A stretch of DNA of 31,195 nucleotides from a virus, in the IMG/VR virus record IMGVR_UViG_3300029728_000034. One strand, given 5' to 3'. The notes under the pieces are model-generated. The model had not been told where the DNA came from and ran no database searches. It worked only from the letters and a program-made list of their open reading frames with translations. The position numbers were made by a program, and so were the translations under genes. Positions 6,679 to 31,195 of this stretch are shown here, one piece after another. How positions within the stretch are numbered: the first letter of the stretch is position 1; each line of letters begins with the position of its first letter.

Positions 6679-6727
6679 TGTCAAAATTTATTTATCTTAG
6701 ATACAAATTTGAGTAAAAAACTTGACA
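6679..6727 (+). promoter_or_regulatory. Conserved intergenic element, copy 1 (TGTCA...TGAGTAAAAAACTTGACA); candidate phage-specific promoter or regulatory site
   Basis: The 18-nt core at 6710..6727 is identical in all four copies. This copy lies between the tape-measure stop and the capsid operon start at 6807. The repeat is certain; the function is inferred. Confidence 0.6.
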
Positions 6728-6806
6728 TTTGATAGTATATAAATATATAAAAATAAAAGATTGTAACAATATTACATTTTTAAAATAGCTTATATATTAA
6801 TAAAAA

Positions 6807-9547: not shown

Positions 9548-9589
9548 TATACCACATAATGAATAATTTATATTTTATAGAAAAATAAT

Positions 9590-15955: not shown

Positions 15956-16005
15956 TGTCAGTTTTTATTTTTTCTTAGTACTTTGAGTGAGTAAAAAACT
16001 TGACA
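15956..16005 (+). promoter_or_regulatory. Conserved intergenic element, copy 2
   Basis: tgtcagtttttattttttcttagtactttgagtgagtaaaaaacttgaca. The core at 15988..16005 is identical to the other copies. It starts 5 nt after the upstream stop codon. Confidence 0.6.
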
Positions 16006-16031: not shown

Positions 16032-16077
16032 TTATTTTAATACATTAGTAAATTGGTTTATATTTTAAGAAAAAGAT

Positions 16078-16500: not shown

Positions 16501-17578
16501 AACAAAAGTTCAGTTAAGTGCTATTGATCCATTTATTGCAAGTAATATCGTATTACCTACAGAAACTAAAGTGAGAGGAAAAGATTATGTAATGTGAGGA
16601 GAAGATAATAAATATCCATTATATCTATGGGATTTATATTTAAATGTTGCCACTCTCCAATCCATTATTAATGGTTCTGCTGACTTTATTGTTGGTAACG
16701 ATGTTAAATGTAATGCTCCAGGATTTGAAGTAGTTGTAAACAAGAAAGGTGAAACAATAGTTGATATAATGAGAAAAATCACTATTGATAAGATGATATT
16801 CGGAGGTTATGCTATCCAAGTAATTAGAGATATGCTTGGAAGAGTTGCAGAGATATATCATATTGATTTTATGAATGTAAGGTCGAGTGAAAAGAATGAT
16901 GTATTATATTATGCAACTGATTGGACAGCTTGGTCTGTAAAAGCTATAAAATATCCAAAATTTGGAGCTGGGGATGAAAATCCAGCTAGTATATTTTATA
17001 ATAAAGGTTATATAACAAGAGGAGTATATCCTATTCCTGTTTATGGAGCTGCTATTTTATCTTGTGAAACTGAGAAAAATATTAATGAATTCCATTTAAA
17101 TAATATCAATAATGGATTTATGGGTAATCTTATTATTAACTTTAATAATGGGGAACCTACAGATGAAATTAGAGAGGAGATTGAGAGGAATATTAATGAG
17201 AAGTTCTCTGGTTATCAGAATGCTGGCAGAATATTGATTTCATATAATGCAGATGAGGCAAATAAGACTACTATTGAAAGATTAGATTCTGATGATTTTG
17301 ATGAGAAATATCAATCATTATCTGAGAGAACCAGAGATCAAATATTCTGTGCCTTCAGAGCTAATCCTTCGTTGTTCGGTTTAAACTATAGCTCAGGATT
17401 TAATGAAAATGAGTTTAATGAAGCATTTAAGCTATATAATCGTACTTTTGTACGCCCAATACAATCAGAAATTTGTGACTCATTTGATAAAATCTTCGGC
17501 ATTAAGAATAGTATTACTATTGAACCATTTAGTTTAACTCCAAAAGGAATGTCAGACAATGCAGAAAATGTTGAATAA
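16487..17578 (+). CDS. Portal protein, 363 aa
   Basis: ATG 16487 is in the same frame as track ORF 16769..17578, with a single TGA at 16595. The N-terminus DYVM-W-GEDNKYPLYL and the body motifs (YNKGYITRGVYPIP, RANPSLFG) are portal-like. Confidence 0.7.
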
Positions 17579-18221
17579 TTATACAGTGTACTGCCATAAG
17601 AATATAGCTGATAATAAATTATATTTTGGAATAACATCACTTACTTTAAATAATAGATGGGGAACTAAAGGTCAAGGTTACAAGAATAATCTTTATTTTA
17701 GCAGAGCAATTAAAAAATATGGTTGAGATAATTTTGAGCATATTATAATTAGAGATAATCTTCCAGAAGCTTGTGCTAAGACTTTAGAAAAGATTCTGAT
17801 TTATAAGTATAATACTAGAAATCCAAAATATGGGTATAATTTAACTGATGGAGGAGACGGTACTTGTGGATATTCTTTTTCACAAGATTATAAAGATAGT
17901 CTTAGAATTATAAGATCAGGAGAAAATAACTCATTTTATGGTAAACAGCATTCAGATGAAAGCAAGCGTAAAATGAGGGAGGCAAGATTAGGCAAAACTC
18001 CTTGAAATAAAGGTATGAAACTCTCAGATAAAGAAAAACAACTAATTTCAGAACGTCAGTGCAAAAAAGTATATAAGTATGATTTAGATGGTAATTTTAT
18101 TTGTGAGTATAAATCAGCTAAGGAAGCTGGAGAGAAGAATAATGTAGATTCTTCTAGTATATCTAGATCTTGTAGAAAAAATAAACCCTGCAAAAATTAT
18201 AAATATTATTATGGAATATAG
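17568..18221 (+). CDS. GIY-YIG homing endonuclease 1 (with NUMOD3-like repeats and a C-terminal DNA-binding domain)
   Basis: MLNNYTVYCHKNIADNKLYFGIT (a GIY-YIG variant), then AIKKYG-W-DNFEH, NNSFYGKQHSDESKRKM and GKTP-W-NKG. TGAs are at 17724 and 18003. The ATG overlaps the portal 3' end. Stop is TAG. Confidence 0.8.
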
Positions 18222-20133: not shown

Positions 20134-20585
20134 TGAAGTATTTTACTATTAGTGAATTAACAAGATCTGATACAGCTTCTATTAAGAAGATAGATAATAC
20201 TCCAAATAAAGAGATTACTGAACACCTTATAGAGTTAGTCGAGAAACTTTTAGACCCATTAAGAAGTGCTTGGGCAGAGTATTGTGATGACAATCAGCTT
20301 GGCAATGCAGGCATCAGGATTTCCTCTGGTTTTAGGAATAAGGAGCTTAATAAAGCAGTGGGAGGATCTTCAACTTCTGCTCATTTAACAGGGTATGCAG
20401 CAGATATATCTCCAATTAATGGTAATATGAAAGTATTCCAAAGTTGGATTGCTGAAGCTATTGAAGAATTTGATTTCGACCAGTTGATATATGAAAGGCC
20501 TAGGAATGGTATAGCTAGTTGAATACACTTGGGATTAAAGAATAAAGACGGGATGCAAAGACGACAGAAATTTACTATTATATAA
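20133..20585 (+). CDS. Endolysin, peptidase M15 (VanY / L-Ala-D-Glu peptidase-like), 150 aa
   Basis: It carries SSGFRNKELNKAVGGSSTSAHLTGYAADI (the H-x6-D zinc motif) and, downstream, W-IHLG. TGA 20520 is read as Trp. Stop is TAA 20583..20585. Confidence 0.75.
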
Positions 20586-21154
20586 TGTTTTACTATTGTT
20601 ATAAAATAATTTTAACTGCAGGTACATTAAGAGGCAAGTATTATATTGGGAAAAGGATTTATAGAGGTAAAGACATAAATAAAGATCCATATAAAGGATC
20701 AGGAAGGATTATTACTAATTATTACAAAAGATTCCCTAATGCATACCAAAAGATTATTTTGGCAACTTGCACTAATGCAGATGAATTATCTAAATTAGAA
20801 TACAAACTAATTGGAGATAAATGGGACACTGATCCTATGTGTTTAAATTTGAAACCTGGAGGAGAAGGAGGCAATTACGGAGTCAAATTTAATTCTGAAT
20901 GAAAGAAGAAACTGTCTAATTCTAATAAGGGAAAGAAACATAATTGCCCAGAATCTTGAAGAGTTAAAGTAGATGCTCATAACAAACAAAGATGTCGTAA
21001 AGTAGCTCAGTATGATTTAGATGGTAATTTTATTCAAGAGTATGAAAGTTGCACAGAAGCAGCCAAATCTGTAGGAACTGATAGAGGAGCTATTAGTAGA
21101 GTATGTGGTGGATTAGCAAATACAGCTAAAGGATTCAAGTGAAGATATGTTTAA
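20585..21154 (+). CDS. GIY-YIG homing endonuclease 2, 189 aa
   Basis: YCYKIIL...GKYYIGK at the N-terminus, a NUMOD3-like segment (KKLSNSNKGKKH), and the C-terminus VAQYDLDGNFIQEYESCTEAAKSVG...AKGFK-W-RYV. TGAs are at 20900, 20957 and 21140. Confidence 0.7.
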
Positions 21155-21162
21155 TAAAAAAG

Positions 21163-21189
21163 AAAAGGAGGGCAAATAACCCTCCTTTT
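21163..21189. terminator. Bidirectional intrinsic terminator at the convergence of plus and minus transcription
   Basis: aaaaggaggg caaataa ccctcctttt forms a 10-bp stem with an A-tract upstream and a T-tract downstream. It sits between the stop codons of convergent genes (21154 and 21193). Confidence 0.8.
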
Positions 21190-21192
21190 TGT

Positions 21193-21333
21193 TTATTCCA
21201 TTATCTCAAATAATTTCTCATCTTTAGGTATTAAATCTCCTGTTTGTAAGTCTACTAAAAACTTACTATTTTCTGGTATTACATATACATAATACACTCC
21301 ATTTATACATACTTTATAGGTTTGGTATTTCAT
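21193..21333 (-). CDS. Hypothetical small protein, 46 aa
   Basis: MKYQTYKVCINGVYYVYVIPENSKFLVDLQTGDLIPKDEKLFEIME. It is tightly packed with its neighbours. Confidence 0.4.
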   Translation of the reverse strand: MKYQTYKVCINGVYYVYVIPENSKFLVDLQTGDLIPKDEKLFEIME

Positions 21334-21334
21334 A

Positions 21335-21475
21335 TTAATCAGTATATGTTGCATTAGTAATTTCTGGTTTTGGCATTTCTTCTACTTCTTCCCAAACTAA
21401 ACCTCTATTCTGGTTTTCTAGTTGAACTATTCTGTATTCTAGTTCTTCAAGCTTTTTAAATAAATGATCATCCAT
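21335..21475 (-). CDS. Hypothetical small coiled-coil protein, 46 aa
   Basis: MDDHLFKKLEELEYRIVQLENQNRGLVWEEVEEMPKPEITNATYTD. Confidence 0.4.
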   Translation of the reverse strand: MDDHLFKKLEELEYRIVQLENQNRGLVWEEVEEMPKPEITNATYTD

Positions 21476-21477
21476 AA

Positions 21478-21639
21478 TTAATCAAATTTAGAAATAAACA
21501 TATAATCTTTATTTTTTAATACTTTGTCTATAATATCACCAAATCTTTTAGTAGCCTCTTTACATTCGAGCATTCATTTATCCAATTCTTTAATATACTC
21601 TTCTGTTTGTTTAATTGTTTCTTTAATATCACTTTCCAT
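21478..21639 (-). CDS. Hypothetical small protein, 53 aa
   Basis: MESDIKETIKQTEEYIKELDK-W-MLECKEATKRFGDIIDKVLKNKDYMFISKFD, with one sense TGA (plus-strand 21574..21576). Confidence 0.4.
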
Positions 21640-21657
21640 ATCACAAATATAATATTT

Positions 21658-23379
21658 TTATTTATTAAATACAAATTTTTTATTAATAATTACATAACCT
21701 TCAGTTTGTTTACCATTTACTCTTTTCTGGCATTTTTTAACTTCATAATATTTATCAATTTCTGTTGCTTTTGGAGTAATAGTAATATCACTAATTTCAT
21801 AAGCTTCTTTAACAAACTTTTTAATATCAGCGTTAGAATACCACATTCCAAGAGTAATTGATTGATTTAACTTCTTAGCTGCTTTATTATCTGCACTTTT
21901 ATTTGATTTCTTTAATAGAGCATCTTTAATATCCGAAATGCAATATTTCAAGCTTGCCATCTTTTCGAATCCTAATTTACTAATAGCTTCTGGTAACCAA
22001 GGATATTTAATAATAGCATCATTTAAGAGTGGAGTATTCAGTTTAAATTTATTTTCCCATTCTGTTCTAACTTCTTTAATTAGTTCTTTAAATGGTTTAT
22101 TATCAGATTCAAAATCAATCTTAATAGAGTTGTCTTCACATTCTATTACTTTTTTAAATCCATTCTTTATATATTCTTTATTAAGATTCGTTCTAATAGA
22201 ATATAAACCTCTTGTCACTTTAAAGTTAAAAATATCTACCTTAGCCATATTTGGATCAAATGTAAATGTAAAATCATCATTTACTTGGATATAAGTATCA
22301 GATGTAAATTCTTTAAGTTTCTTTCTTGCAACTTCAGGCATTGCATTGTAAGCATCTACAGCAATCTTAGTTTCCTCAATATTCTGGATATTCTTCTTTT
22401 TAAAGTCTTCATAACTAATATCTGCATATCTTGTTGCTGAGTAAAGATGAGTTATCCAGTTTAAATATTTACTATTTCTAATTCTGCCAGCAATCTGTTG
22501 GATTGAAGTTGAGATGTCAAGAAGAGTTTGTGCTTTTTGAGCATCACTTACTACTACAATTCTTCCATTTTCATCATAAATATCAGAACCTTCAAATACT
22601 GTAGAAGTTAATAAATTTATTTTCTTAGGTTCATCTAATACTGTAGAATTATGAATTGATAATTTGGTTTTATTGTTTTTGGAATATATAACTCTGGTAT
22701 TCTCTTCTGTAAGTTTAGCTTTCTGAATAAGATTCTTTATAAAGTCTACAGAATTTACAAATATATAAACATTACCTTCGACTTGATTATTAAGAACAGC
22801 ATTAATTAATTTAATAGTTGAAGCTTCAACATTCTTACATTTAACGGCTTGTACCTTGGTTTCAATAACATCATCCCATTCTTGCTTTACTAATTCTAAA
22901 TCTTTTAATTCATCTAATACAAACTCTTCTTCAAGAGGAGTAGCAGTCATAAATGTAAAATCTTTAAATAATTCATAGTTCTCTAAAACAGGTTTAATAG
23001 CATCCTTTCTAAAGCTATACTGATTAAATAGTATATGATATTCATCTACTAATAAACTATATTCTTTAGTATTAACTGCAGAAATAACTTTTGGAAGTGA
23101 GTTATATGTAACAATAATTTTAGGACATTTAACACTCTCTACGTAATCTTTAATCTCTTTAATAGTAGCTCCAGCATAAACTCCAAATATCTTCTCAGTA
23201 CGTCTTTCATTTGGATATTGTTGAAGTTTATTTTCAACTAAGCTAGTAAATGGAACACAAATAACATAAGGCTTATTACATTCAATTGCCATTGAAGTTC
23301 CTCCACATCCAACTTTTCCTTTATCAAATAAACAGTTAGTTGGCAACTCATTAATCAAATTGTTTAAATATGTTTTCAT
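21658..23379 (-). CDS. Superfamily-2 (DEAD/DEAH-like) helicase, 573 aa; probable replication protein
   Basis: Motifs read in order: GKVGCGGTS (an atypical Walker A), LLVDEYH (DExH), MTATP, QQIAGRIRN (QxxGRxxR). It has 5 TGG codons and no TGA. Confidence 0.7.
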   Translation of the reverse strand: MKTYLNNLINELPTNCLFDKGKVGCGGTSMAIECNKPYVICVPFTSLVENKLQQYPNERRTEKIFGVYAGATIKEIKDYVESVKCPKIIVTYNSLPKVISAVNTKEYSLLVDEYHILFNQYSFRKDAIKPVLENYELFKDFTFMTATPLEEEFVLDELKDLELVKQEWDDVIETKVQAVKCKNVEASTIKLINAVLNNQVEGNVYIFVNSVDFIKNLIQKAKLTEENTRVIYSKNNKTKLSIHNSTVLDEPKKINLLTSTVFEGSDIYDENGRIVVVSDAQKAQTLLDISTSIQQIAGRIRNSKYLNWITHLYSATRYADISYEDFKKKNIQNIEETKIAVDAYNAMPEVARKKLKEFTSDTYIQVNDDFTFTFDPNMAKVDIFNFKVTRGLYSIRTNLNKEYIKNGFKKVIECEDNSIKIDFESDNKPFKELIKEVRTEWENKFKLNTPLLNDAIIKYPWLPEAISKLGFEKMASLKYCISDIKDALLKKSNKSADNKAAKKLNQSITLGMWYSNADIKKFVKEAYEISDITITPKATEIDKYYEVKKCQKRVNGKQTEGYVIINKKFVFNK

Positions 23380-23409
23380 AATTTTAATAATTTAAATAGT
23401 TAAAGTTTT

Positions 23410-23459
23410 TGTCAATATTTTTATTTTCTTACTACTAAATTTGAGTAAAAAACTTGACA
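23410..23459 (+). promoter_or_regulatory. Conserved intergenic element, copy 3 (plus orientation inside the minus-strand gene block)
   Basis: tgtcaatatttttattttcttactactaaatttgagtaaaaaacttgaca. The core at 23442..23459 is identical to the other copies. It contains TAAATTTG, a perfect TAnnTTTG box. Confidence 0.6.
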
Positions 23460-23475
23460 GTAAGATTCAAAAAGT

Positions 23476-23494
23476 GGCAGGATTTTCACCTGCC
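23476..23494 (-). terminator. Intrinsic terminator for the upstream minus-strand genes
   Basis: The minus strand reads ggcagg tgaaaat cctgcc followed by acttttt. It sits between the stop at 23509 and the helicase start at 23379. Confidence 0.55.
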
Positions 23495-23508
23495 TAGAAG
23501 TAATAGAA

Positions 23509-23664
23509 TTACTTATTTTTACTAAAATAAGCTGCAATTGTAGGAGAGTTAGCTAATAAGTTAGCAAATTGTTCATCAGAACAAGGAATTGAATTCTCCA
23601 TAGTGCTCTTAATTGTATTATCTTCAATAATAATTGTTCCATTGTTTTTAATCGAATTTTTCAT
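23509..23664 (-). CDS. Hypothetical small protein, 51 aa
   Basis: MKNSIKNNGTIIIEDNTIKSTMENSIPCSDEQFANLLANSPTIAAYFSKNK, with a promoter-like motif 41 nt upstream. Confidence 0.4.
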   Translation of the reverse strand: MKNSIKNNGTIIIEDNTIKSTMENSIPCSDEQFANLLANSPTIAAYFSKNK

Positions 23665-23705
23665 AGTCTTTAAAATTTTAATTATAATAATCTATTTTGA
23701 TAGTA

Positions 23706-23737
23706 CATATATACAACATTTTTATTTAAAATCCAAA
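23706..23737 (-). promoter_or_regulatory. Bacteroidota-type promoter (TTTG-N20-TATATATG) reading leftward
   Basis: The minus strand reads tatTTGGattttaaataaaaatgttgTATATATGtactat. The -7 region block matches 21 of 23 nt with the plus-strand promoter at 24316..24347. Confidence 0.5.
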
Positions 23738-23754
23738 TAATTTAGCAATTATTT

Positions 23755-24243
23755 TTAATAAATTTTTGGTCAAAATTCTAACTCACTAAAACTTAGTAGT
23801 TTATCTGATTCATATAAATCTAATGCTGATGGTTCCATATAGTAAATTTCAAAACATCTATCAAAAGAGCCTAAGTACTGTCTCTTTCCCTTAGATACAT
23901 TATATTTGTTTTCTAAAGTTTGAACTACTATATTTCCGCCTTTATTTTGATTATATCCATTATTTAGGGAATTATATTTAGATATATAATATATTTCAAG
24001 ATTATTTAACTTTACTATTAAATCTTCTAAATTATCATCTAATTCCTCTAATATTTCTCATTTAAACTTATCTATTCCGTATTTTCTAAAAGCGTTATAT
24101 AATGGATAATTATAAGCTTTATTACTTGGATCTGTACTTACAAACTTGTGTTTATTCCATCTTTTGTTAATATTAGTTCTAGTTTGACCAATATAACACT
24201 TATTATTTATTGTATTAGTTATTTTATAAATATACCCTTTCAT
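23755..24243 (-). CDS. GIY-YIG homing endonuclease 3, 162 aa
   Basis: MKGYIYKITNTINNKCYIGQT is a canonical GIY...YIG motif. I checked the reading codon by codon through TGA at 24058..24060 and 23770..23772 to TAA (plus-strand 23755..23757). Confidence 0.8.
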
Positions 24244-24263: not shown

Positions 24264-24295
24264 CAAATATATGAATAATTTTTTAATTATGCAAG
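24264..24295 (-). promoter_or_regulatory. Bacteroidota-type promoter (CTTG-N20-TATATTTG) for GIY-YIG 3
   Basis: The minus strand reads cTTGcataattaaaaaattattcaTATATTTGcaat, with 20 nt between the -7 box and the ATG. Confidence 0.45.
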
Positions 24296-24315: not shown

Positions 24316-24347
24316 TTTGGAAATATGAATTTTTTGTTGTATATTTG
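24316..24347 (+). promoter_or_regulatory. Bacteroidota-type promoter (TTTG-N20-TATATTTG) for the rightward early genes
   Basis: It matches the known Bacteroides primary-sigma consensus TTTG / TAnnTTTG exactly, with a 20-nt spacer, 46 nt upstream of ATG 24394. Confidence 0.6.
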
Positions 24348-24393: not shown

Positions 24394-24633
24394 ATGAAAA
24401 CTATATTTAAATATGCAATTATTGCAACGATTATTTTAATGGGAATAGCTGGTATTAGAGTATATAATGCTTATGGAGACTACCAAACTAAAACATTTGA
24501 GCTTAGATTAGAACAGGCAGAACTTCAGCATAAATTAGACTCTGTAATGTGGCATAATCCTGGAAGTTCAGAAGTATCTGAATTATATGAACAGTATTGT
24601 GATGTAACCTTAAAAATTCATAATGTAAGATAA
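24394..24633 (+). CDS. Small membrane protein, 79 aa
   Basis: It has an N-terminal TM helix (FKYAIIATIILMGIAGI) and is the first gene downstream of the rightward promoter. Confidence 0.55.
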   Translation: MKTIFKYAIIATIILMGIAGIRVYNAYGDYQTKTFELRLEQAELQHKLDSVMWHNPGSSEVSELYEQYCDVTLKIHNVR

Positions 24634-25070
24634 TGAAAACAGATATAAGAAGTTTAGTCTTTATAAAGAATCTATTTAAAGATAAATATAATATAGATAT
24701 AGAATGATGTAAAGACGATTATTCCAGGTATGATGGAACATTTAATTGGAATGGAATTGATTATATAATTGAAGTTAAAAGAAGAAGATTCAATTCTAAT
24801 AAATATCCAACCACTATTATTAATAGGGATAAATTTGATATGCTATCAAGAAATAATTCTATATTAGTAATAATATTTGATGATGGAGTATATATATTTA
24901 AAGATATAAAACAAGCCTTTATAAAGGATTCTATGAAATATGGTTGTTCTACAACAGATTTTGGAGGAACTTATGGCTATTCATTAAAAACAGAGTTGTC
25001 TTTAAAGAAAGCCATTAAGATAGATGTAAATACAGAATTTAGTAATTATATAGCAAATGATAGCCTATAA
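24633..25070 (+). CDS. Possible PD-(D/E)XK-fold nuclease, 145 aa
   Basis: ATG 24633 overlaps the upstream TAA. It has one sense TGA (24705). YDGTFNWNGIDYIIEVKRR fits the D...(D/E)xK pattern, but only weakly. Confidence 0.4.
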
Positions 25071-25551
25071 AAGAATACTTAATTTTGAAAACTACCAAAT
25101 TGGAACTGATGGCTCAATATGAAGTTTAAGAGCATCAGTTCCAAAGAGGTTAAAACCTCAAGTAAAAACTAATGGGTACTTTACAGTAACATTATATAAT
25201 AAAAATTTGAAAAAGAAGTGTTATATACATAGATTAGTAGCTGAAACTTTTATATCTAATCCGAATAACTATCCTTGTATAAATCATAAGGATGAAAATA
25301 AATCAAATAATAATGTAAGTAATTTAGAATGGTGTACTTATAATTATAATAATAATTATGGAACTCATAATCTGCGAGCTGGATATAGTCATAAGAAACC
25401 AATACTGCAATTACTAAATGGAATAGTTATTAAAAGATGGGATTCAGCAATAGATGCTGAGAGAGAACTAAATATACAATCTAGAAATATTGTAAAGGTT
25501 CTTAAAGGGCAGCGAAAAACAGCAGGAGGATATATGTGAACATATGAGTAA
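25057..25551 (+). CDS. HNH homing endonuclease (NUMOD4-like N-terminus, HNH core, C-terminal DNA-binding domain), 164 aa
   Basis: MIAYKRILNFENYQIGTDGSI-W-SL...NGYFTVTLYNK..KKCYIHRLVAETFISNPNNYPCINHKDENKSNNNVSNLEW...TAGGYM-W-TYE. TGAs are at 25120 and 25537. Confidence 0.85.
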
Positions 25552-25852
25552 TAACGAAATTGTAGAAAAGTACTATCCATTTATTATGGAACTTAAGCAA
25601 AAATTTGGTGCAGATGATGACTGTGTTCAAATGATTTTTGTAGAAATACTAGAGTATTCAAATCCAAAATTAAATCAGCTTGATAGCAAAAATGAATTGA
25701 AATTTTGGATTACAAGATTATTTAAGAATTATTGGTTTAGTAAAACAAGTAGATATTACTATACCTATAAGAAATATTATGAGATTGTTAAAGAACCACT
25801 TGAACAACAAAATGACGAATTGGAGGATTGATTAAATGAAACGGAAGATTAA
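25544..25852 (+). CDS. Sigma-70 family (ECF-like) region-2-only protein, 102 aa
   Basis: ADDDCVQMIFVEILEY...LKFWITRLFKNYWFSKTSR follows the ECF region-2 pattern (AeDlvQevF...WL.rIa.N...d..R). It has one TGA (25829) and stops at TAA 25850..25852. Confidence 0.5.
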
Positions 25853-26081
25853 TATTGACGATTTACTTACTGAGTATGAAATAGACTATAGTATGTTTAC
25901 AAATATGGATGATAGACTATTAAATATATATCCAAAATGACTTGAGCTTAATAAGGCAGATAAGACAGTAATCATATTATATGCTGAATATCACAGTTAT
26001 AGAGAAGTGGGAAGAATATTAGGAATTAGTCATACTACAATTCAAAGATTTATTAAACAAATAAGAGAGAGATTATGTTAG
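25836..26081 (+). CDS. Sigma-70 region-4-like HTH protein, 81 aa
   Basis: ADKTVIILYAEYHSYREVGRILGISHTTIQRFIKQIRERL matches the region-4 HTH pattern. It is a separate ORF in a different frame from the region-2 ORF, with a 17-nt overlap. It has one TGA (25938) and a TAG stop. Confidence 0.55.
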
Positions 26082-26404
26082 AATTATTTATAATAGCAGT
26101 AATAATAGTCTTTATAATTGATTTATCTGGGGCTTTGGATAGTTTTAAACATAGTATTTGAAAAAGACTATTTAAAGGTATGCCTTATAAAGAAGATTGA
26201 AGACTAAAACCTTTAGATTGCAGTTTATGTATGACTTGGTGAATTGGATTAATATATATTCTTATTACAAGTCAATTTTCAATTTTAATGGTTGGATATA
26301 TTGCACTATTAGCATTTATGACTCCAATTATTAAAGATATTATGATATTATTAAAAGATGCATCTACTAAGCTGATAGATGTTATATACAAACTTATTGA
26401 TTAA
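26075..26404 (+). CDS. Small integral membrane protein with a CxxC motif, 109 aa
   Basis: I translated it by hand. It has 3 sense TGAs, a PLDCSLCMTW-W motif and hydrophobic segments at both ends. Confidence 0.5.
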
Positions 26405-26493
26405 AAATTATATTTTATGGAAACAGAAGTTATTTATCACTACAAGAATGGAAAGTTAATTTCTATATTTACTTATACTAAAAAGTGCTAATT

Positions 26494-26829
26494 ATGAAAC
26501 AATTAACAGAAGAGCAGTTTAAATATTTAAGAGGATTTGAAGATAGATTTGTAACTGCAACTAAGTCTAATTATTGCAGAAATGTACAAAAGCAGGATGT
26601 AATTAAGCTTAAAGAGATTTATGAATATTTAATTGAACAAGAATATAGAATGAGCGTAGCTTGTGCTACTTGTATACTTAATCTTATAAAGAGGATTGCC
26701 CCAATCTATTTTGAATATCAAGAAAAACTAAAGGAAAATGAAAGTAAAGAATCAGGAACTGCCGAAGAAAATAGGGAGACCGAAAAAGGAAGAAGTAAAA
26801 GAGGATCAAATAGACGAACAAAAAACTAA
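26494..26829 (+). CDS. Hypothetical protein, 111 aa
   Basis: I preferred ATG 26494 over the track's GTG 26485. The C-terminal 30 aa are low-complexity and overlap the terS start. Confidence 0.45.
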   Translation: MKQLTEEQFKYLRGFEDRFVTATKSNYCRNVQKQDVIKLKEIYEYLIEQEYRMSVACATCILNLIKRIAPIYFEYQEKLKENESKESGTAEENRETEKGRSKRGSNRRTKN

Positions 26830-27190
26830 ATATCTTTATGCAGCAAGATTATTTAATAAAGGGTGGTCCAGAAATAAAGTAAGTGAGGAACTTCAAACTA
26901 AATATGGAGTTGGGCAAACTACTGCTGCTAAATATATTAGAGAAGCTTATAAGATTATTGCAGATAAAAACGATAATCTTATAAAGAATTTAAGACATAT
27001 ACAATTAACAAGATTGGAAACATTGTTGGATATTGCTATTAGTAAAAATGATGTAAGATCTGCTACTGAGGTTATTAAAACAATAAATTCTATGTTTGGA
27101 TTAAATCAACCAGAAATTCAAGTTAATATTCAAAATAATGAATGCCAATTTAAATTTGGAGACCCTATTATAAATGACAAGGATATATAA
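26738..27190 (+). CDS. terS: Terminase small subunit candidate, 150 aa
   Basis: It has a basic N-terminus (GRPKKEE), an HTH-like segment (WSRNKVSEELQTKYGVGQTTAAKYIREAY) and a helical C-terminus. It lies directly upstream of terL and overlaps it. Confidence 0.55.
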   Translation: MKVKNQELPKKIGRPKKEEVKEDQIDEQKTKYLYAARLFNKGWSRNKVSEELQTKYGVGQTTAAKYIREAYKIIADKNDNLIKNLRHIQLTRLETLLDIAISKNDVRSATEVIKTINSMFGLNQPEIQVNIQNNECQFKFGDPIINDKDI

Positions 27191-28421
27191 AGGATATAGG
27201 CCATTTATGTACCAATATAAGGTTCATATAGCTATGGCAGATGCTTATAGATCTGGAAGGATATTTACAATTAAAGCTAAACGACAAGTAGGTAAATCAT
27301 TCTTAGCTGAAAATGAATTATTACGATTTGCAATTAACTATCCAAAAACAGTCAATTGTATAGTAGAACCTACTCTTGGGCAATCAAGAAAAGTGTTTAA
27401 AGAAATAGTTAATGCTATAGCTGAAGCAGATATTCTTAAACGTAAGAATGAAACTTTGCTTGAATTAGAGTTTAATAATGGCAGTTCTATATTATTTAGA
27501 TCTGGAGAACAAATGGATTCGTTACGAGGATTCTCTGTAAGTGGATTACTTGTATTAGATGAGGCTGCTTACTTAAAAGATGAAGTATTTGAAATTATTA
27601 AACCTACTACTGATGTGTGGTCTGCTCCAATATTAATTATTAGTACTCCAAGGTTCCGAGAGGGTTTCTTTTATGACTGCTTTACTAAAGGGTTAGATCC
27701 GAAATATGACAAGTTCTATAAATCATTTGATTGAGCTTTAGAAGATACATCTATGCTTTTAGATAAAGAGAAGTTAGAGATGTATCGACTTACAACCTCA
27801 AAAAATAAATTTAGAACCGAATACTTAGGGGAATTTGCAGATGATGATGGATGTTTATTTAATAATATAGCTAATTGCATAATTGAGAAAAAACCAGATT
27901 ATCAGAGTCTTTATATAGGAATAGACTGGGCTACTGGGAGTGGTAAAGACTATACTTGTGTTACTGCTTTAAATGAATCTGGACAAATGGTCTTTATAAA
28001 GTATTTTAACGATAAAACTCCAACAGAGCAAGTTGATTTATTAACAAATATACTAACTGAGTATCAAGGATTTATAAAGATTGTGCAAGTTGAACAAAAC
28101 TCAATTGGTAGTGTCTTCTATGATATGTTAGTTCGGAAGAATCCGAAAATCAGGATTATACGATTCTTAACTACTAATAAGAGTAAGGCAGATATAGTTA
28201 ATAAGCTTCAAGCTGCTTTGGAGAATGAAAAGATAGGATTATTAAAAGATGATAAACTTTTAAATGAGTTAAGACTATATGAAGCTTCATATAATCCAAA
28301 AACTGGAAATGTTAGTTATAATGCTCCATCTGGATTTAATGATGATACAGTAATTTCATTAATGCTAGCCTATGACTCATTAAATACAAACAAAGGACAT
28401 TATAATATTAAAATTAAATAG
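27174..28421 (+). CDS. terL: Terminase large subunit, 415 aa
   Basis: Walker A is KAKRQVGKS and Walker B is GLLVLDEAAY. A C-terminal nuclease-like region includes GIDWATGSGKDYT and FNDDTVISL. The two ORF fragments are joined by TGA 27732. Confidence 0.85.
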
Positions 28422-28422
28422 T

Positions 28423-29082
28423 ATGAATGTAGCAACTAAATGGGAAGAAGTATCTTTAAAGAAATTCCAAGCTTTAAATACATTTATTATGAGTGATGTA
28501 AAAATGACAGATTTAGATAGGAGTATCGAGATCTACTCATTACTTACAGATAACCCAGATGAAGCAATGGATGCTTTATTAAATATGACCGTAGATCAAT
28601 TATCTGCAGAACTTAGTAAGATTCATTTTATTGTAAATAAATATAAATCCAAAGTTCCAGAAACTGAGTATGATATTGATGGTAATAAATATACAGTTCA
28701 ATTAAATCTCAGAAATATGACTGCTGCTCAGTATATTGATTTTCAGAACTTTTATAAAGATTATGAAAAGAATCAGAAGTATATATTCTTATGCTTTTTA
28801 ATTCCTAAAGGAAAGAAGTATAATGAGGGTTATGATGTAATGGAACTAGCAGAAGATTTATATGATAAGATTCCAATTACTATTGTTACTGATGTAATGG
28901 TTTTTTTTTGCAAATTATTAGAGAGCTTAACCATAGCTACCCTAATCTCTTCAATGCGGGAGATGAAGAAATTGATGAAAAAGGAGAAAGATCCAGTAAA
29001 GAAACATCAATTACGGAAGAGGATAGTTCAAGCGAGACAAACTCTGAATTTAGTCAAAAATGGAACTGGATTTGTTGAATAG
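28423..29082 (+). CDS. Tail assembly chaperone candidate (G-like product), 219 aa
   Basis: It contains a T9 slippery run, and a 140-nt coding-like stretch in the -1 frame lies beyond its TAG stop. The call rests mainly on this frameshift architecture. Confidence 0.45.
   Translation: MNVATKWEEVSLKKFQALNTFIMSDVKMTDLDRSIEIYSLLTDNPDEAMDALLNMTVDQLSAELSKIHFIVNKYKSKVPETEYDIDGNKYTVQLNLRNMTAAQYIDFQNFYKDYEKNQKYIFLCFLIPKGKKYNEGYDVMELAEDLYDKIPITIVTDVMVFFCKLLESLTIATLISSMREMKKLMKKEKDPVKKHQLRKRIVQARQTLNLVKNGTGFVE
28901..28909 (+). other. T9 homopolymer; candidate -1 ribosomal frameshift (U_UUU_UUU) or transcriptional slippage site
   Basis: gta atg gtT TTT TTT tgc in the zero frame is a perfect X_XXY_YYZ heptamer. 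Confidence 0.5.
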
Positions 29083-29225
29083 ACAGAGTTAGTGAAGTAA
29101 CAAGGTTAAACTGGCATCAAGTATATGATATGCAGATTCAAGAGTTTTTGAATATTATTTGCTACTTACTTGATAAAGGGAAAGAAGAAAAAAGACAAAT
29201 AGATCTTTGAAAAGCTAAACACTAA
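28908..29225 (+). CDS. -1 frame extension (GT-like fusion C-terminus), about 105 codons
   Basis: The -1 frame is open from the T9 run to TAA 29223..29225. It reads LQIIRELNHSYPNLFNAGDEEIDEKGERSSKETSITEEDSSSETNSEFSQKWNWIC-W-IDRVSEVTRLNWHQVYDMQIQEFLNIICYLLDKGKEEKRQIDL-W-KAKH. There is no independent start codon for the last 140 nt. Confidence 0.45.
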
Positions 29226-29227
29226 AA

Positions 29228-29277
29228 TGTCAGTTTTTATTTATTTTAACTACTAAAAGTGAGTAAAAAACTTGACA
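29228..29277 (+). promoter_or_regulatory. Conserved intergenic element, copy 4
   Basis: tgtcagtttttatttattttaactactaaaagtgagtaaaaaacttgaca. The core at 29260..29277 is identical to the other copies. It starts 3 nt after TAA 29225. Confidence 0.6.
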
Positions 29278-29280
29278 CTT

Positions 29281-29305
29281 AAATAGGGAGTAAATCTCCC
29301 TATTT
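29281..29305 (+). terminator. Hairpin directly following element copy 4 (aaatagggag / ctccctattt, 5-nt loop)
   Basis: A 10-bp stem read directly, followed by gtgttt. Confidence 0.45.
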
Positions 29306-29347
29306 GTGTTTAGATACTCAATATGAGAATGATATATTTTAGTAAAA

Positions 29348-29829: not shown

Positions 29830-31195
29830 ATGGCATTTATACCAAGTAAATTAGGAATATATAATGCATCAAGGAGTTTTCCTGTTAAATGGAATAATCC
29901 TGGATGGGGAATTACTGGAGAATATGATTATTGGACTTGGGGAGATGATTATACTGAAGAAGGGCCTTTAAATGTAACTATACAGGATCCAAGTAAAGAA
30001 GGATGTACAATACAATTTTTATCTCCTACAACAATAACTACTGATTCTTCTACTGTATTTCATTTTTATCCTAGAGGTATTACTACTGCTTTATTAGGGG
30101 AAGATTTACCAATTAATTTACATAGTAAAGCTCCTGGATATTATCCTGCTAATGGCACCATTAAAGTACCAAATACTGGTGGAGAATATACAGTAGAGTA
30201 TATATTAAATAGATCAGATATTATTAAATGAGATGCAGCAGTTGTTAATGCTACAGCTTTAGTTAATATGGAAGTTCTGGATTGGGATTCCTGCTCTATT
30301 AAGTTTAAAGTTACAGTAAGAGCTAATACTCAATGAAATACTGATTTAACTGCAACTATCCAATTAGGGGCTTATTATGATACTAATAAATTTATTAGTT
30401 ATAGTTATGGCTTTAAGATTGAAAAAAGCAATACTCCAGAAGATTTAAAGTTAGTAGTAACTCCTTCATCTGGAACTTATGGAGCAGCTGCTTTTGTTAC
30501 TGAAGAATTTCATTTAAGTACAACTAAAGCAGAAGAAACAATTACCTCATTTAATGTTACTTGTTCTCAAGCCAGTAATATTAAAAAGGATATTGTTGAT
30601 AACTATTTTGTATTAACTGTTCCAGAGAATAAAACTACTAATAATTTGGAGTTTAGTGCAATGGTTACTGCAACAACTTCTGGAGGTTATACTCTTGAAG
30701 CTACAGTTCCAATTAAACAAGCTGCAACATCTTTAATGATTCCTAATACTAATTATGAAGTAAGTTGAACTGCATCTACATTAAATATAATGGGTACAGG
30801 ATCAAACAACTTAGATGATGTTGTATTTAGTATTCCTGTAGGTTGGATTAGTGGTCAGAAGTTCTCTGTGAATCCTCAAGGTGTAGCAACTATTAGTTTG
30901 AACATTGCAGAAAATTCAGGTTTATCTTCTAGACAAGCAACTATTGGAGTATCTGTTATAAAGAATAGTTTAAGTATTATTAATTTATCTATTAATATTA
31001 CACAATCTGTTAAATCTGATATATCTCCTATTTGGAAAGATTATGTTTGGGAAGAAATTATCAGTTCTGATTTTATTGAATATCATCTAGATTATGCAGG
31101 AGATATGATTTATGCTGGCAAGGCTTATAAATATCCTGAAACAGATAGAGTAGAGTTTTTATTAAATAATGTAGCTGAGAATTATCTATCTAATG
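29830..31195 (+). CDS. 5' part of the wrap-around tail/baseplate structural protein with Ig/BACON-like repeats (continues at 1..914)
   Basis: I translated it codon by codon to the window end. The only interruptions are TGA at 30229, 30334 and 30766. The segment EVS-W-TASTLNIMGT...VGWISGQKFSVNPQGVATISLNIAENSGLSSRQATIGV is BACON-like. Confidence 0.8.
31097..31195. repeat. Terminal direct repeat, copy 2 (identical to 1..99)
   Basis: Direct comparison of the two ends of the window. Confidence 0.95.

What the first reader, a model, noticed from the sequence alone, without database searches (positions are those of the whole stretch)
23410..23459. A four-copy ~50-bp element with an invariant 18-nt core divides the plus strand into four operon-sized units
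The copies lie at 6679..6727, 15956..16005, 23410..23459 and 29228..29277. They share TGTCA at the left end, a T-rich segment, cTTAsTACtAAA, and an 18/18-identical core TGAGTAAAAAACTTGACA. In a genome this AT-rich and otherwise divergent, that level of conservation implies selection. All four copies are in plus orientation, including copy 3, which sits inside the minus-strand gene block. Copies 2, 3 and 4 are each followed within 1-16 nt by a stable hairpin whose sequence differs between copies. Copy 1 is followed only by a weak AT hairpin. The copies begin 3-5 nt after the last stop codon of one gene block in three cases, and each precedes the next block. The resulting units are 23442 -> early/packaging/chaperone genes, 29260 -> tail genes across the window junction, 6710 -> capsid and fibre genes, and 15988 -> portal/connector/lysis genes. 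The element matches neither the Bacteroidota TTTG/TAnnTTTG promoter nor a sigma-70 promoter, because no -10 box lies at the right spacing after TTGACA. My working hypothesis is a phage-specific middle/late promoter read by the phage's own split sigma factor (25544..26081). The variable hairpins would then form 5'-terminal stabilisers of each transcript. Alternatives are a nut-like antitermination site, a binding array for a phage DNA-binding protein, or a small TIR-bounded repeat (TGTCA...TGACA).
Basis: partly seen in the sequence, partly recalled or inferred. Interest (0 to 1): 0.78.

Follow-up and report, generated by a model that had tools for sequence, protein, structure and literature searches.

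The report
Palindromic intergenic repeat in a phage
A real, strongly conserved 50-base near-palindrome sits at four gene-block boundaries of a small TGA-recoded phage genome, but it is probably a protein-recognition or structural control site and not the phage late promoter, which appears to be a different motif nearby.

Summary
TGAGTAAAAAACTTGACA occurs four times, all on the + strand, each inside a 49-50 nt element (0 of 100 shuffles reach four copies).

The window is a complete circular ~31.1 kb phage genome. It reads TGA as Trp, has no Shine-Dalgarno sequences, and uses Bacteroidota-type early promoters.

About 35 variants of the element occur in relatives, only where TerL is at least 80% identical. 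In these variants:
- TGAGTAAAAA, the TGT...ACA ends and TTTTTAT stay fixed.
- "TTGACA" changes to TAGACA or GTTACA, with matching changes in the left arm.
- At junction 4 the element is inverted in 17 genomes, while the following terminator and the downstream motif keep their orientation.
- Copy 3 always lies 24-34 nt from the start of a minus-strand gene.

Relatives at 56-63% TerL identity keep the sigma-like ORF pair and the gene order but lack the element.

A separate motif, TAC-N15/16-TATATnTTA, precedes all four late units (4 hits against 0.34 expected). It persists in relatives that lack the element, so it is the better late-promoter candidate.

Best reading (about 0.33): a DNA-level palindromic recognition site at unit boundaries. 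Rivals are an RNA hairpin, a promoter or small-RNA gene, and a selfish recombination cassette. Function is unproven.

The parts
6679..6727 (+). Element copy 1 (49 nt; TGTCAA...TGAGTAAAAAACTTGACA). It lies 67 nt after the TMP stop and 79 nt before the ATG at 6807.
   Evidence: 41.2 bits
15956..16005 (+). Element copy 2 (50 nt). It lies 4 nt after the stop at 15949-15951 and abuts a terminator-like hairpin.
   Evidence: (50.7 bits)
23410..23459 (+). Element copy 3 (50 nt). Its left arm is 30 nt from the start codon (23379) of the minus-strand 573-aa gene. The same arrangement is seen at 24-34 nt in 25 related genomes.
   Evidence: 45.1 bits
29228..29277 (+). Element copy 4 (50 nt). It lies 2 nt after the stop (29223-29225) of the -1-frame extension ORF. 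It is inverted in place in 17 related genomes.
   Evidence: 52.6 bits
6615..6632 (+). Degenerate solo right half (TGAGTAAAATTTATGACA) directly after the TMP stop codon. It has no left arm and is probably a relic.
   Evidence: 8.6 bits
16005..16032 (+). Hairpin followed by UUAUUUUAAU: an intrinsic-terminator-like site after copy 2.
   Evidence: -15.6 kcal/mol, z -5.9
29280..29306 (+). Hairpin followed by GUGUUU: a terminator-like site after copy 4. It keeps the same orientation in relatives where the element is inverted.
   Evidence: -15.5 kcal/mol, z -4.5
23476..23494 (-). Hairpin with its U-run (ACUUUUUG) on the minus strand: the terminator of the upstream minus-strand small gene(s), 16 nt from copy 3.
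   Evidence: -11.3 kcal/mol
6773..6799 (+). Two-block motif TAC-N15-TATATATTA, 7 nt before the ATG at 6807 (candidate late promoter).
9550..9577 (+). Two-block motif TAC-N16-TATATTTTA before the ATG at 9590. It is preceded by a strong terminator (9508-9537) but by no 50-nt element.
16041..16067 (+). Two-block motif TAC-N15-TATATTTTA, downstream of copy 2 and its terminator and before the unit starting at 16108.
29315..29341 (+). Two-block motif TAC-N15-TATATTTTA, 6 nt before the ATG at 29348, downstream of copy 4 and its terminator.
24316..24347 (+). Bacteroidota-type host promoter TTTG-N20-TATATTTG in front of the early + block (24394). No element lies next to it.
   Evidence: homologous sites in L166/L105
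25544..25852 (+). It is always paired with the next ORF. Its sigma identity is not confirmed.
25836..26081 (+). 81-aa HTH protein with a Sigma70_r4_2/HTH_50 match. It is a candidate DNA-binding partner, but its recognition helix is also conserved in relatives that lack the element.

Best explanation
The element is a clade-specific 48-51 bp quasi-palindrome: TGT-N3/4-TTTTTAT ... nTAC-N5/6-TGAGTAAAAA-N4/5-ACA. It occupies the few non-coding gaps at the boundaries of non-early transcription units.

I think it works on double-stranded DNA as the recognition site of a DNA-binding protein, phage-encoded or less likely host. That protein would modulate transcription at these boundaries as an operator, an upstream site or a road-block. 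The element is not the core late promoter.

**Shown:**
- its anatomy and its distribution;
- tolerance of both orientations with the sequence kept intact;
- fixed proximity to one gene start;
- independence from the sigma-like genes;
- the existence of a separate late-promoter-like motif.

**Inferred:**
- that a protein binds it;
- that the effect is on transcription.
For: 1. Orientation tolerance with conservation. At junction 4 the element is inverted in 17 of 41 TerL-oriented related loci. TGAGTAAAAA and both arms stay intact in two different flank contexts, and the terminator and downstream motif stay put.
2. Copy 3 is on the + strand in 25 of 25 genomes that carry the 572/573-aa gene. Its left arm lies 24-34 nt from that minus-strand gene's ATG. 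No + strand gene ends there, so it cannot be a 3'-UTR element there.
3. An extra copy in six genomes lies 20 nt before a minus-strand ATG with no terminator between them.
4. The invariant positions are two-fold symmetric: T1 G2 T3 / A48 C49 A50 and TTTTA / TAAAA. Conservation stops sharply at TGT and ACA.
5. Length is held at 48-51 nt. Spacer and core lengths compensate each other.
6. At junction 4 the element and its terminator form an 80/80-identical island inside flanks that are 50-75% identical.
7. The element never lies beside the three Bacteroidota-type host promoters.
8. The late units have their own motif, TAC-N15/16-TATATnTTA (4 hits against 0.34 expected). That motif persists in relatives lacking the element, so the element is an add-on and not the promoter.
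Against: - No binding protein was identified.
- The r4-like HTH has the same recognition helix (SHTTI[QA]RFIK) in L166, which lacks the element. It therefore does not co-vary with the element.
- Half-sites about 37 bp apart are unusual for a dimeric regulator.
- The most conserved block (TGAGTAAAAA, plus TAC) is asymmetric.
- The variable parts of the arms co-vary: own arm pairing scores 7.6 against 6.7 for permuted arms, reached in 1 of 5000 permutations.
- The sense strand folds into a hairpin of about 20 bp that is rich in G.U pairs. It is more stable than the antisense strand in 34 of 36 variants. Both this and the arm co-variation point to intrastrand pairing in RNA or ssDNA and not to duplex recognition.
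- Distances to the next ATG vary from 20 to 102 nt.
- Copies 3 and 4 are degenerate in one lineage (L105/L115), so the site is dispensable there.
Confidence: 0.33

Rival explanations
1. RNA hairpin. The element is transcribed as the end of the upstream unit and folds into a stem of about 20 bp with a conserved loop (nUAC) and a conserved 3' arm (UGAGUAAAAA). The hairpin would act with the terminator just downstream. Possible roles are a processing or stability site (like T7 RNase III sites) or a nut/put/RAT-like signal that controls read-through.
For: - Sense-strand folds average -10.9 kcal/mol against -6.1 for antisense. Sense is more stable in 34 of 36 variants because U-rich 5' arms pair with G/A-rich 3' arms through G.U pairs. 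z-scores range from -1.9 to -7.4.
- Arm changes are compensated: TGTCAG/TTGACA, TGTCTA/TAGACA and TGTAAC/GTTACA.
- In four of six locus types the element is co-oriented with transcription and starts 1-4 nt after a stop codon (10 nt at the TGTAAC-type junction-1 copies). At the junctions followed by a hairpin (2 and 4) that terminator starts 0-3 nt after the element.
- The last terminator of the + strand (21162-21190) and the strong internal one (9508-9537) have no element. This would fit selective read-through control.
Against: - Copy 3 (25 of 25 genomes) has no upstream + strand gene, and its sense strand is not part of any predicted transcript.
- The inverted junction-4 copies (17 genomes) keep the DNA sequence. 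The mRNA-sense hairpin therefore loses its G.U pairs (about -7.6 against -11.2 for the commonest inverted form) and carries the complement of the core.
- Hybrid arms with mismatches (TGTCTA/TTGACA) are commoner than the compensated form.
- RNAalifold gave no consensus on the MAFFT alignment.
- There is no Rfam match.
Confidence: 0.22
2. Promoter. One version is the reader's unidirectional phage-factor promoter, with the start at the ACA end or at TGAG. A second version is a back-to-back pair of outward-facing, -10-only promoters (RTAAAAA-N5-7-CA at both ends). In either case the transcripts would be short RNAs ending at the adjacent terminator (sibling sRNAs sharing the 5' sequence GAGUAAAAAACUUGACA), or they would need antitermination to reach the genes.
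For: - Conservation ends exactly at ACA, 6-8 nt after an A/T hexamer, on both ends.
- In five of six locus types the core points towards the next gene block.
- Copy 3 and the extra copy lie 20-34 nt from ATGs that have no other recognisable promoter.
- The left arm plus centre resembles ECF-type architecture (TGTCAn or TGTAAC, N16/17, nTAC). This resemblance comes from my own recall of ECF promoters and was not tested.
- All inverted copies have a palindromic GTAC centre.
- The element is absent next to host-type early promoters.
Against: - Terminator-like hairpins start 0-3 nt after copies 2 and 4.
- A separate, statistically supported motif sits between those terminators and the late ATGs. 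It is conserved in relatives that lack the element.
- The sigma-like pair occurs widely without the element.
- The 'r2' ORF is not confirmed as sigma.
- The putative discriminator or -35 bases vary between copies within one genome.
- The element is inverted at junction 4.
- There is no match to the Bacteroidota -33/-7 consensus, except that the TT allele creates TAAATTTG.
- No 15/18 or better complement of the core exists elsewhere in the phage to serve as an sRNA target.
Confidence: 0.2
3. Selfish or neutral repeat. On this view the element is a small TIR-bounded, MITE/REP-like sequence, or a PeSL-like cassette together with its terminator. It spread into the few tolerated intergenic gaps and persists through gene conversion. 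Its main consequence is to provide homology for modular recombination.
For: - Its taxonomic range is limited to the clade with TerL at or above 80%.
- Relative to L166/L167/L168, the element plus its terminator looks like an insertion between the stop codon and a pre-existing leader.
- It occurs in both orientations, and there are degenerate or relic copies (6615-6632; L105/L115).
- The same TT/AG dimorphism recurs just before TGAG at several paralogous copies, and arms are swapped between otherwise identical copies. Both suggest conversion between copies.
- It forms an identity island between diverged modules.
Against: - There are no target-site duplications.
- No transposase or recombinase is encoded in the genome.
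- No filled-site versus empty-site pairs were found among close relatives.
- No multi-copy occurrence was seen in 185,579 species genomes: 25 scattered single hits, which is chance level.
- Copies at different junctions differ widely in their interiors but keep TGAGTAAAAA and the termini. This argues for purifying selection and against recent spread.
Confidence: 0.17

Closest known systems
PeSL cassettes (promoter-early stem-loops) of T4-like phages (PMC2839356, PMC4122927)
   Same: Both are short conserved intergenic cassettes. They start right after the upstream stop codon, combine a conserved AT-rich or TTGACA-containing motif with a terminator stem-loop, recur many times per genome, and sit at the borders of mosaic modules as islands of identity.
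   Different: PeSLs are complete sigma-70 promoters (TTGACA-N17-TATAAT) with the stem-loop inside or beside the promoter. Here no -10 follows at the right spacing in copies 2-4. The host uses Bacteroidota-type promoters. The element is itself a 50-bp quasi-palindrome, it can be inverted, and the terminator is a separate hairpin.
Stoperators of Cluster A mycobacteriophages (from my own knowledge, not checked in the library)
   Same: Both are dispersed copies of an asymmetric, nearly invariant motif in short intergenic gaps at unit ends. Most copies share one orientation, and the motif would act on DNA through a single phage protein.
   Different: Stoperators are 13-14 bp, non-palindromic and number 20-30 per genome. 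They are bound by the prophage repressor, and no repressor or integrase is seen here. The shared heptamer TGTCAAG is most likely coincidence.
T7 RNase III processing sites, lambda nut and HK022 put RNA elements (from my own knowledge)
   Same: Both kinds are intercistronic hairpins of about 50 nt, repeated along one strand and placed just before or after unit boundaries and terminators.
   Different: Those elements act only in the sense RNA. Here two conserved locus types are not in any sense transcript. No N-like, Q-like or RNase partner was identified. nut and put sites lie near promoters and not before each terminator.
REP / MITE-type palindromic repeats (e.g. Correia elements) (from my own knowledge)
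   Same: Both have terminal inverted repeats, an extragenic position just after stop codons, copies in both orientations, and hairpin-forming transcripts.
   Different: This element has no target-site duplication. It is not multi-copy in any bacterial genome searched. There are only 4-5 copies, at orthologous positions, in one phage clade.
T4 late promoters (TATAAATA, read by gp55 with gp33) (from my own knowledge). This comparison concerns the neighbouring motif, not the element.
   Same: TAC-N15/16-TATATnTTA is an A/T-rich box directly before the late units, in a phage that carries a small sigma-like pair.
   Different: It has a second upstream block (nTAC), lies 6-12 nt from the ATG at three of the four units (40 nt at 16108), and is untested.

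Membership tests
Sigma-70-type promoter (TTGACA-N16-18-TATAAT) | A -10 hexamer 16-18 nt after the TTGACA | tested here: not met
   Copies 2, 3 and 4 have CTCCTT, GCAGGA and TCTCCC at that position. Only copy 1 has TATATA/TATAAA. TTGACA itself is replaced by TAGACA or GTTACA in relatives.
Bacteroidota sigma-A promoter (-33 TTTG / -7 TAnnTTTG) | TAnnTTTG with TTTG 17-23 nt upstream | tested here: not met
   Only the TT allele (copy 3, 23436-23443) gives TAAATTTG, and it has no well-spaced TTTG. Other copies read TAAAAGTG or TACTTTGA. Canonical sites exist elsewhere, for example 24316-24347.
   The ORF pair is present in L121-L142 and L166-L168. The element is absent from all 30 such loci at E<=0.01.
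   The element is inverted at junction 4 in 17 genomes.
   No transcriptome data are available.
Split sigma factor (regions 2 and 4 as separate proteins) | A region-4 HTH | tested here: met
   Pfam Sigma70_r4_2 at E=5e-6 (26.5 bits, cut-off 25.7) and HTH_50 at E=1e-7.
Split sigma factor (regions 2 and 4 as separate proteins) | A region-2 fold or sequence | tested here: inconclusive
   The window protein has no Pfam hit. One of 16 homologues gives Sigma70_r2 at E=0.008. The profile search against PDB sequences finds no sigma. An AF2 model with pLDDT 81 gives no Foldseek hit at E<=0.001. The sequence pattern DL.QE..L.LL...W/F..R...N is reminiscent of region 2 only by eye.
Intrinsic terminator (the element itself) | A GC-containing stem with a short loop, followed by a U-run | tested here: not met
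   The stem is AU/GU-rich and no U-run follows ACA. The separate hairpins downstream do meet the definition.
PeSL cassette | A complete early promoter with an embedded or adjacent terminator stem-loop, recurring at module borders | tested here: inconclusive
   The terminator adjacency and the module-border identity island are met. The promoter part is not demonstrated and does not fit the host consensus.
MITE / REP-like mobile repeat | Terminal inverted repeats | tested here: met
   Arms of 12-13 nt with fixed TGT/ACA ends.
MITE / REP-like mobile repeat | Target-site duplication, filled and empty sites, and many copies in a host genome | tested here: not met
   No duplications flank any copy. 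The GTDB scan returned only 25 scattered single hits. Only orthologous positions are occupied.
Invertible promoter (inverton) | The same element found in both orientations at one locus within a population, plus a recombinase | tested here: not met
   The TGTAAC type is always inverted at junction 4 and always direct at junction 1. No recombinase gene was found. Read-level heterogeneity could not be examined.
Structured RNA family (Rfam) | A match to a curated covariance model | tested here: not met
   No hit at the element at E<=5.
nut/put/RAT-like antitermination RNA | Sense-strand transcription upstream of the controlled terminator at every copy | tested here: not met
   This fails for copy 3 and for the inverted junction-4 copies.

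The most novel reading that the evidence does not exclude
The element is a new kind of phage control module: a 50-bp quasi-palindrome carrying two back-to-back, outward-facing -10-only start sites (RTAAAAA-N5-7-CA). It would be read or bound by a two-polypeptide sigma-like factor (the 81-aa r4-like HTH plus its 102-aa partner). Together with its terminator it would move as a regulatory cassette between modules of TGA-recoded phages that infect a host with Bacteroidota-type promoters. Its symmetry would let it work in either orientation.
Probability: 0.12. Interest if true: 0.7.

Novelty: new variant of a known kind. Interest (0 to 1): 0.45.

Why it matters
Conserved intergenic repeats are the main handle on gene regulation in uncultured phages. 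This family is abundant in metagenomes: hundreds of near-identical TerL sequences, no cultured relative and no INPHARED match. It combines TGA-to-Trp recoding with Bacteroidota-style promoters and no suppressor tRNA.

Telling its true late promoter apart from an accessory palindromic element gives two concrete, testable cis-elements, plus a candidate two-protein regulator.

If the palindrome is a protein-recognition site that tolerates inversion and travels with its terminator, it would extend the idea of the mobile regulatory cassette beyond the T4-like phages where PeSLs were described. If it is only a selfish repeat, it still marks the recombination seams of this phage family.

Tried and rejected
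1. Sigma-70 reading of TTGACA. There is no -10 at the right spacing in copies 2-4, the hexamer varies in relatives, and the host promoters are of the Bacteroidota type.
2. Rfam search at E<=5. Nothing was found at the element.
3. Host or prophage identification by scanning 185,579 species genomes for the 18-mer. The result was 25 unrelated single hits, which is chance level. INPHARED megablast found no match. tblastn with TerL found only relatives below 30% identity.
4. The 148-kb IMG/VR contig that carries the phage at its end could not be read beyond the fetched stretches.
5. MITE test. No target-site duplications were found.
6. Active inversion switch. No variant was seen in both orientations at one locus.
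7. RNAalifold on the MAFFT alignment gave no consensus because indels put the arms out of register. I replaced it with per-sequence folds and an arm-permutation test.
8. sRNA-target idea. No 15/18 or better complement of the core exists elsewhere in the genome, and shorter matches are uninformative.
9. 'TTGAGTA' iteron link to L166. The motif is not enriched.
10. TAC-N6-TGAG and TTAGnTAC as shared motifs between the element and the late-promoter regions. The statistics are only weak, so this remains a lead.
11. Helical phasing between the element and the TATATTTTA box. Gaps of 10, 25, 53-55 and 64 nt are too few and too irregular to support a claim.
12. Structural confirmation of sigma region 2. 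It failed.
13. ECF-like reading (TGTCAn/TGTAAC-N16/17-nTAC). It rests on recalled consensus sequences only and could not be tested.
Full report
**1. The observation**

The 18-mer TGAGTAAAAAACTTGACA occurs exactly four times, at 6710, 15988, 23442 and 29260, all on the + strand. No further site matches within three mismatches. Chance expectation is 0.11, and 0 of 100 shuffles reach four. Each core ends a 49-50 nt unit that begins with TGTCA, continues T-rich, and carries cTTAsTAC 5-6 nt before TGAG.

A sequence-only covariance model built from 34 variants recovers just these four full copies (41-53 bits). The next hit scores 11.7 bits.

Stable hairpins follow copy 2 (-15.6 kcal/mol) and copy 4 (-15.5). 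One lies beside copy 3 (-11.3). Only a non-significant one follows copy 1.

**2. What the genome is**

- ORFs tile the sequence only if TGA is read through.
- In-frame TGA codons align mostly with Trp in standard-code relatives: 75 of 188 aligned cells are W and only 4 are G (TerL W187).
- No gene ends in TGA, and TGA codons occur in early and late genes alike.
- No tRNA gene is present.
- There is no Shine-Dalgarno sequence before any gene.
- The window has a 99-nt exact terminal repeat, so it is a complete circular assembly of about 31.1 kb.

The gene order is as follows.
- + strand late genes run from 29348 across the junction to 21154.
- A minus-strand block covers 21193-24243. It includes a 573-aa helicase-like gene and a GIY-YIG endonuclease.
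- A + strand block, 24394-29225, carries an HNH endonuclease, a 102-aa plus 81-aa ORF pair, TerS and TerL.

Three non-coding sites match the Bacteroidota promoter consensus TTTG-N19-21-TAnnTTTG (the consensus itself is from my own knowledge):
- 24316-24347, before the + early block;
- 24264-24271 on the minus strand, before the GIY-YIG gene;
- 21645-21675 on the minus strand.

Homologous sites occur in relatives. There is no cultured relative.

**3.

- Copy 2 starts 4 nt after a stop codon.
- Copy 4 starts 2 nt after the stop of a -1-frame ORF (28869-29225) that extends the 219-aa gene.
- Copy 1 is 67 nt after the TMP stop. A degenerate solo core (6615-6632) sits directly after that stop.
- Copy 3 is 30 nt from the start codon of the minus-strand 573-aa gene, not after a stop.
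- The hairpin beside copy 3 has its U-run on the minus strand.
- Other unit boundaries have terminators but no element: 9508-9537 (-21.3 kcal/mol) and 21162-21190.

**4. Relatives**

The exact 18-mer is found in 62 IMG/VR stretches, almost all from contigs of about 30 kb belonging to one family. TerL homologues fall into tiers of 100, about 88, 81, 63, 57 and about 50% identity. Loci around them were fetched and oriented.

Searching all fetched loci gives about 35 distinct variants of the element, all in the clade with TerL at or above 80%. Three further collection scans with variant patterns added only the same family plus chance hits.

None of 30 loci with TerL at or below 63% has a match at E<=0.01. 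At the orthologous junctions of L166, L167 and L168 the genes either abut or are separated by a plain terminator. The sequence just before the next ATG is still conserved there. The element plus its terminator therefore looks like a clade-specific insertion.

**5. Anatomy across the variants**

*Invariant parts.* The fixed positions are T1 G2 (T3), TTT(TA) at 9-13, A25 C26 of 'TAC', TGAGTAAAAA at 33-42, and A48 C49 A50. Length stays at 48-51 nt, because a 16-nt spacer goes with an 18-nt core and a 17-nt spacer with a 17-nt core. One lineage has TTAGTAAAAAA in place of TGAG....

*Variable arm positions.* Positions 4-7 and their partners vary, so 'TTGACA' is not fixed.
- Fully or mostly paired forms are TGTCAG/CTTGACA, TGTCAA/TTGACA, TGTCTA/TAGACA and TGTAAC/GTTACA.
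- Mismatched hybrids also exist (TGTCTA/TTGACA, TGCAAC/GTTACA).
- Each variant's own arms pair better than permuted arms (7.6 against 6.7; reached in 1 of 5000 permutations). The sequences are related, so this overstates independence.
- One genome can carry two arm types, for example TGTAAC at junctions 1 and 4 and TGTCA at junctions 2 and 3. The arms therefore co-vary per copy and not per genome.

*Folding.* As RNA the sense strand folds into a hairpin of about 20 bp that uses G.U pairs. Mean energy is -10.9 kcal/mol against -6.1 for antisense, and sense is more stable in 34 of 36 variants.

**6. Position and orientation**

Counts are over the window plus 41 TerL-oriented loci.

| Locus type | Orientation and context | Cases |
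|---|---|---|
| Junctions 1, 2 and 4 | + between + genes | 27 |
| Junction 4 | inverted between + genes | 17 |
| Copy 3 | +, left arm 24-34 nt from the ATG of the minus-strand 572/573-aa gene | 25 (every genome with that gene) |
| Extra copy | minus, between minus-strand genes; 2 nt after the 572-aa stop, 20 nt before the next ATG, no terminator | 6 |

In the inverted junction-4 copies, the terminator and the motif before the next ATG keep their orientation and spacing. The gap from the element to TATATTTTA is 53-55 nt in both orientations. All inverted copies have a palindromic GTAC centre.

In one lineage (L105/L115) copies 3 and 4 are degenerate. They have lost TGTCA, and the core reads TGAGAAAAAAAC or TTACAAAAAAAC.

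Between the window and L088, junction 4 shows an 80/80-identical island covering the element plus terminator, inside flanks that are 50-75% identical.

**7. A better late-promoter candidate**

The two-block motif TAC-N15/16-TATAT[ACT]TTA occurs exactly four times in the window. All four are on the + strand and in non-coding DNA: 6773-6799, 9550-9577, 16041-16067 and 29315-29341. Each lies after a hairpin and just before the first ATG of a late unit (6807, 9590, 16108, 29348). The expectation is 0.34, with a maximum of 3 in 300 resamplings.

The motif is present at the orthologous junctions of L166 and L167, which lack the element (ATTAC-N15-TATATATTA; TTAC-N15-TATATCTTA). The unit at 9590 has a terminator and this motif but no 50-nt element.

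The layout of a late junction is therefore: stop codon, then the element (at three of the four junctions), then a hairpin, then the TAC-N15-TATATTTTA motif, then the ATG.

**8. The sigma question**

The 81-aa ORF matches Sigma70_r4_2 (E=5e-6, above the curated cut-off) and HTH_50.

The 102-aa ORF upstream is always paired with it as a separate, overlapping or adjacent ORF. This holds even in GC-rich relatives that use the standard code, so the split is real. Its identity as region 2 is not established:
- it has no Pfam hit, and only 1 of 16 homologues reaches E=0.008;
- a profile search against PDB sequences finds no sigma;
- a pLDDT-81 model finds nothing with Foldseek.

The HTH recognition helix is nearly the same in L166, which lacks the element. 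The target of the pair is therefore more likely something shared by all relatives, such as the late motif.

**9. Weighing the explanations**

*Unidirectional sigma-dependent promoter.* This is contradicted by several results:
- the sigma-like pair occurs widely without the element;
- the junction-4 copy is inverted in 17 genomes;
- the 'TTGACA' part varies;
- terminators follow copies 2 and 4 immediately;
- an independent late motif exists.

*3'-UTR RNA hairpin.* This explains the G.U-rich sense folds, the arm co-variation and the position next to stop codons. It cannot cover copy 3, which has no upstream + strand gene in 25 of 25 genomes. It also cannot cover the inverted copies, which keep the DNA sequence rather than the RNA structure.

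*Selfish repeat.* This fits the restricted range, the relic copies and the signs of conversion between copies. It does not fit the missing duplications, the absence of host copies, and the selective invariance of the core among otherwise diverged paralogues.

*Duplex-DNA recognition site.* This is the reading that leaves the fewest contradictions. It tolerates either orientation and variable distance. Its symmetric invariant positions (TGT, TTTTA / TAAAA, ACA) would be the contacts. The arm co-variation would be a by-product of intrastrand correction in a quasi-palindrome. No binding protein is identified, and the asymmetric core is not explained.

I put this reading at about 0.33, the RNA hairpin at 0.22, a promoter or small-RNA gene at 0.20, and a selfish cassette at 0.17.

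**10. Comparison with known systems**

The closest published analogue is the PeSL cassette of T4-like phages. PeSLs are conserved promoter-plus-stem-loop units that start at the upstream stop codon, recur at module borders and mediate modular shuffling. The present element differs in four ways. It lacks a demonstrable promoter. It is itself a 50-bp palindrome. It is separable from its terminator. It is invertible.

Functionally it also resembles stoperator arrays and intercistronic processing or antitermination hairpins, but it fails defining features of each (see the membership table). I class it as a new variant of a known kind: conserved intergenic regulatory repeats of phages.

**11. Limits**

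- All evidence is comparative.
- Most genomes come from one IMG/VR data set and are closely related.
- No transcript or binding data exist.
- The host is unknown.
- The promoter consensus sequences used for comparison are from my own knowledge of the literature, apart from the PeSL papers that I read.

Noticed in passing
whole window; e.g. TerL codon 187 (27732-27734): The genome reads TGA as Trp: 45 in-frame TGA codons against 60 TGG, in early and late genes alike, and no gene ends in TGA. It has no tRNA gene and no Shine-Dalgarno sequences. Its early promoters are of the Bacteroidota type (TTTG-N20-TATATTTG). This combination points to a host that natively reads TGA as Trp yet uses Bacteroidota-style transcription and translation signals. 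More distant relatives use the standard code.
   Followed up: partly
window 6773-6799, 9550-9577, 16041-16067, 29315-29341: The two-block motif TAC-N15/16-TATAT[ACT]TTA lies directly before the first ATG of all four + strand late units (4 hits against 0.34 expected). It is conserved in relatives that lack the 50-nt element. It is the likely late promoter, possibly giving leaderless or very short-leader mRNAs at three of the four units.
   Followed up: partly
window 28423-29082 and 28869-29225: The 219-aa gene after TerL is followed by a -1-frame ORF whose C-terminal 47 codons look like real protein (...EFLNIICYLLDKGKEEKRQIDLWKAKH). The equivalent stretch is coding-like in all relatives, including standard-code ones. 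This is probably a conserved programmed frameshift, in an unusual position for a tail-chaperone-type shift.
   Followed up: partly
window 25544-25852 and 25836-26081: A 102-aa helical protein and an 81-aa sigma-r4-like HTH protein are conserved as two separate ORFs, overlapping by 17 nt here. This holds across relatives down to about 30% identity. The pair may be a two-polypeptide sigma-like factor, but the first protein has no detectable sigma region 2 fold.
   Followed up: yes
window 16078-16110: Three tandem repeats of about 11 nt, each holding an ATG-TAA or TG-TAA mini start-stop unit (atgtaaaagta atgtaaaacta tgtaaaat), lie immediately before the ATG at 16108. They are conserved in L167 (atgtaaattaatgtaaaactttgtaaaaATG).
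   Followed up: no
window 17559-18221, 20585-21154, 23755-24243, 25057-25551: The genome carries three GIY-YIG genes and one HNH/NUMOD free-standing homing-endonuclease gene. Their presence, position and even strand differ among genomes whose TerL is 99% identical, so they are the main source of gene-content variation in the family.
   Followed up: partly
window 29240-29319 compared with L088 12049-12128: This is an 80/80-identical island (element plus terminator plus GTGTTTAGATAC) inside coding flanks that are only 50-75% identical. The same TT/AG dimorphism just before TGAG recurs at junctions 1, 3 and 4 (and a comparable one at 2) in different genomes. Both observations suggest gene conversion between copies.
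   Followed up: partly
L166 5190-5260: A relative that lacks the element has three direct repeats of ATTTTGAGTAC(C/T)ACC, 22-23 nt apart, beside a minus-strand HTH_36 gene. They look like iterons or operators and share TTTGAGTA with the element core. The heptamer alone is not enriched.
   Followed up: partly
L142 2752-2845, 8936-9029, 12604-12697: A distant standard-code relative carries three copies of a long perfect hairpin (AAAAATGTAACATAACAAATAC...GTATTTGTTATGTTACATTTTTT) at unit boundaries. It also has a four-copy motif TTTATCCAT-N-GAAAAAATGTTTATTATTAAT. Each sub-family therefore seems to have its own boundary repeats.
   Followed up: no
L105 3029-3226 compared with L088 6979-7158: A 59-65-aa early gene (MKTKQIEALEYFLD...) lies on opposite strands in different lineages, together with its own Bacteroidota-type promoter. 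This is a small inversion within the divergent early region.
   Followed up: no
IMGVR_UViG_3300045988_175865 (L015, L017, L115): One family member occupies the last ~32 kb of a 148.6-kb contig. The remaining 116 kb could be host DNA (a prophage) or a chimeric assembly. It could not be fetched.
   Followed up: no
window 1-99 and 31097-31195: There is a 99-nt exact terminal direct repeat, so the window is a circularly closed assembly. The ORF at 9-914 is the tail end of a longer ORF that starts near 30231.
   Followed up: yes
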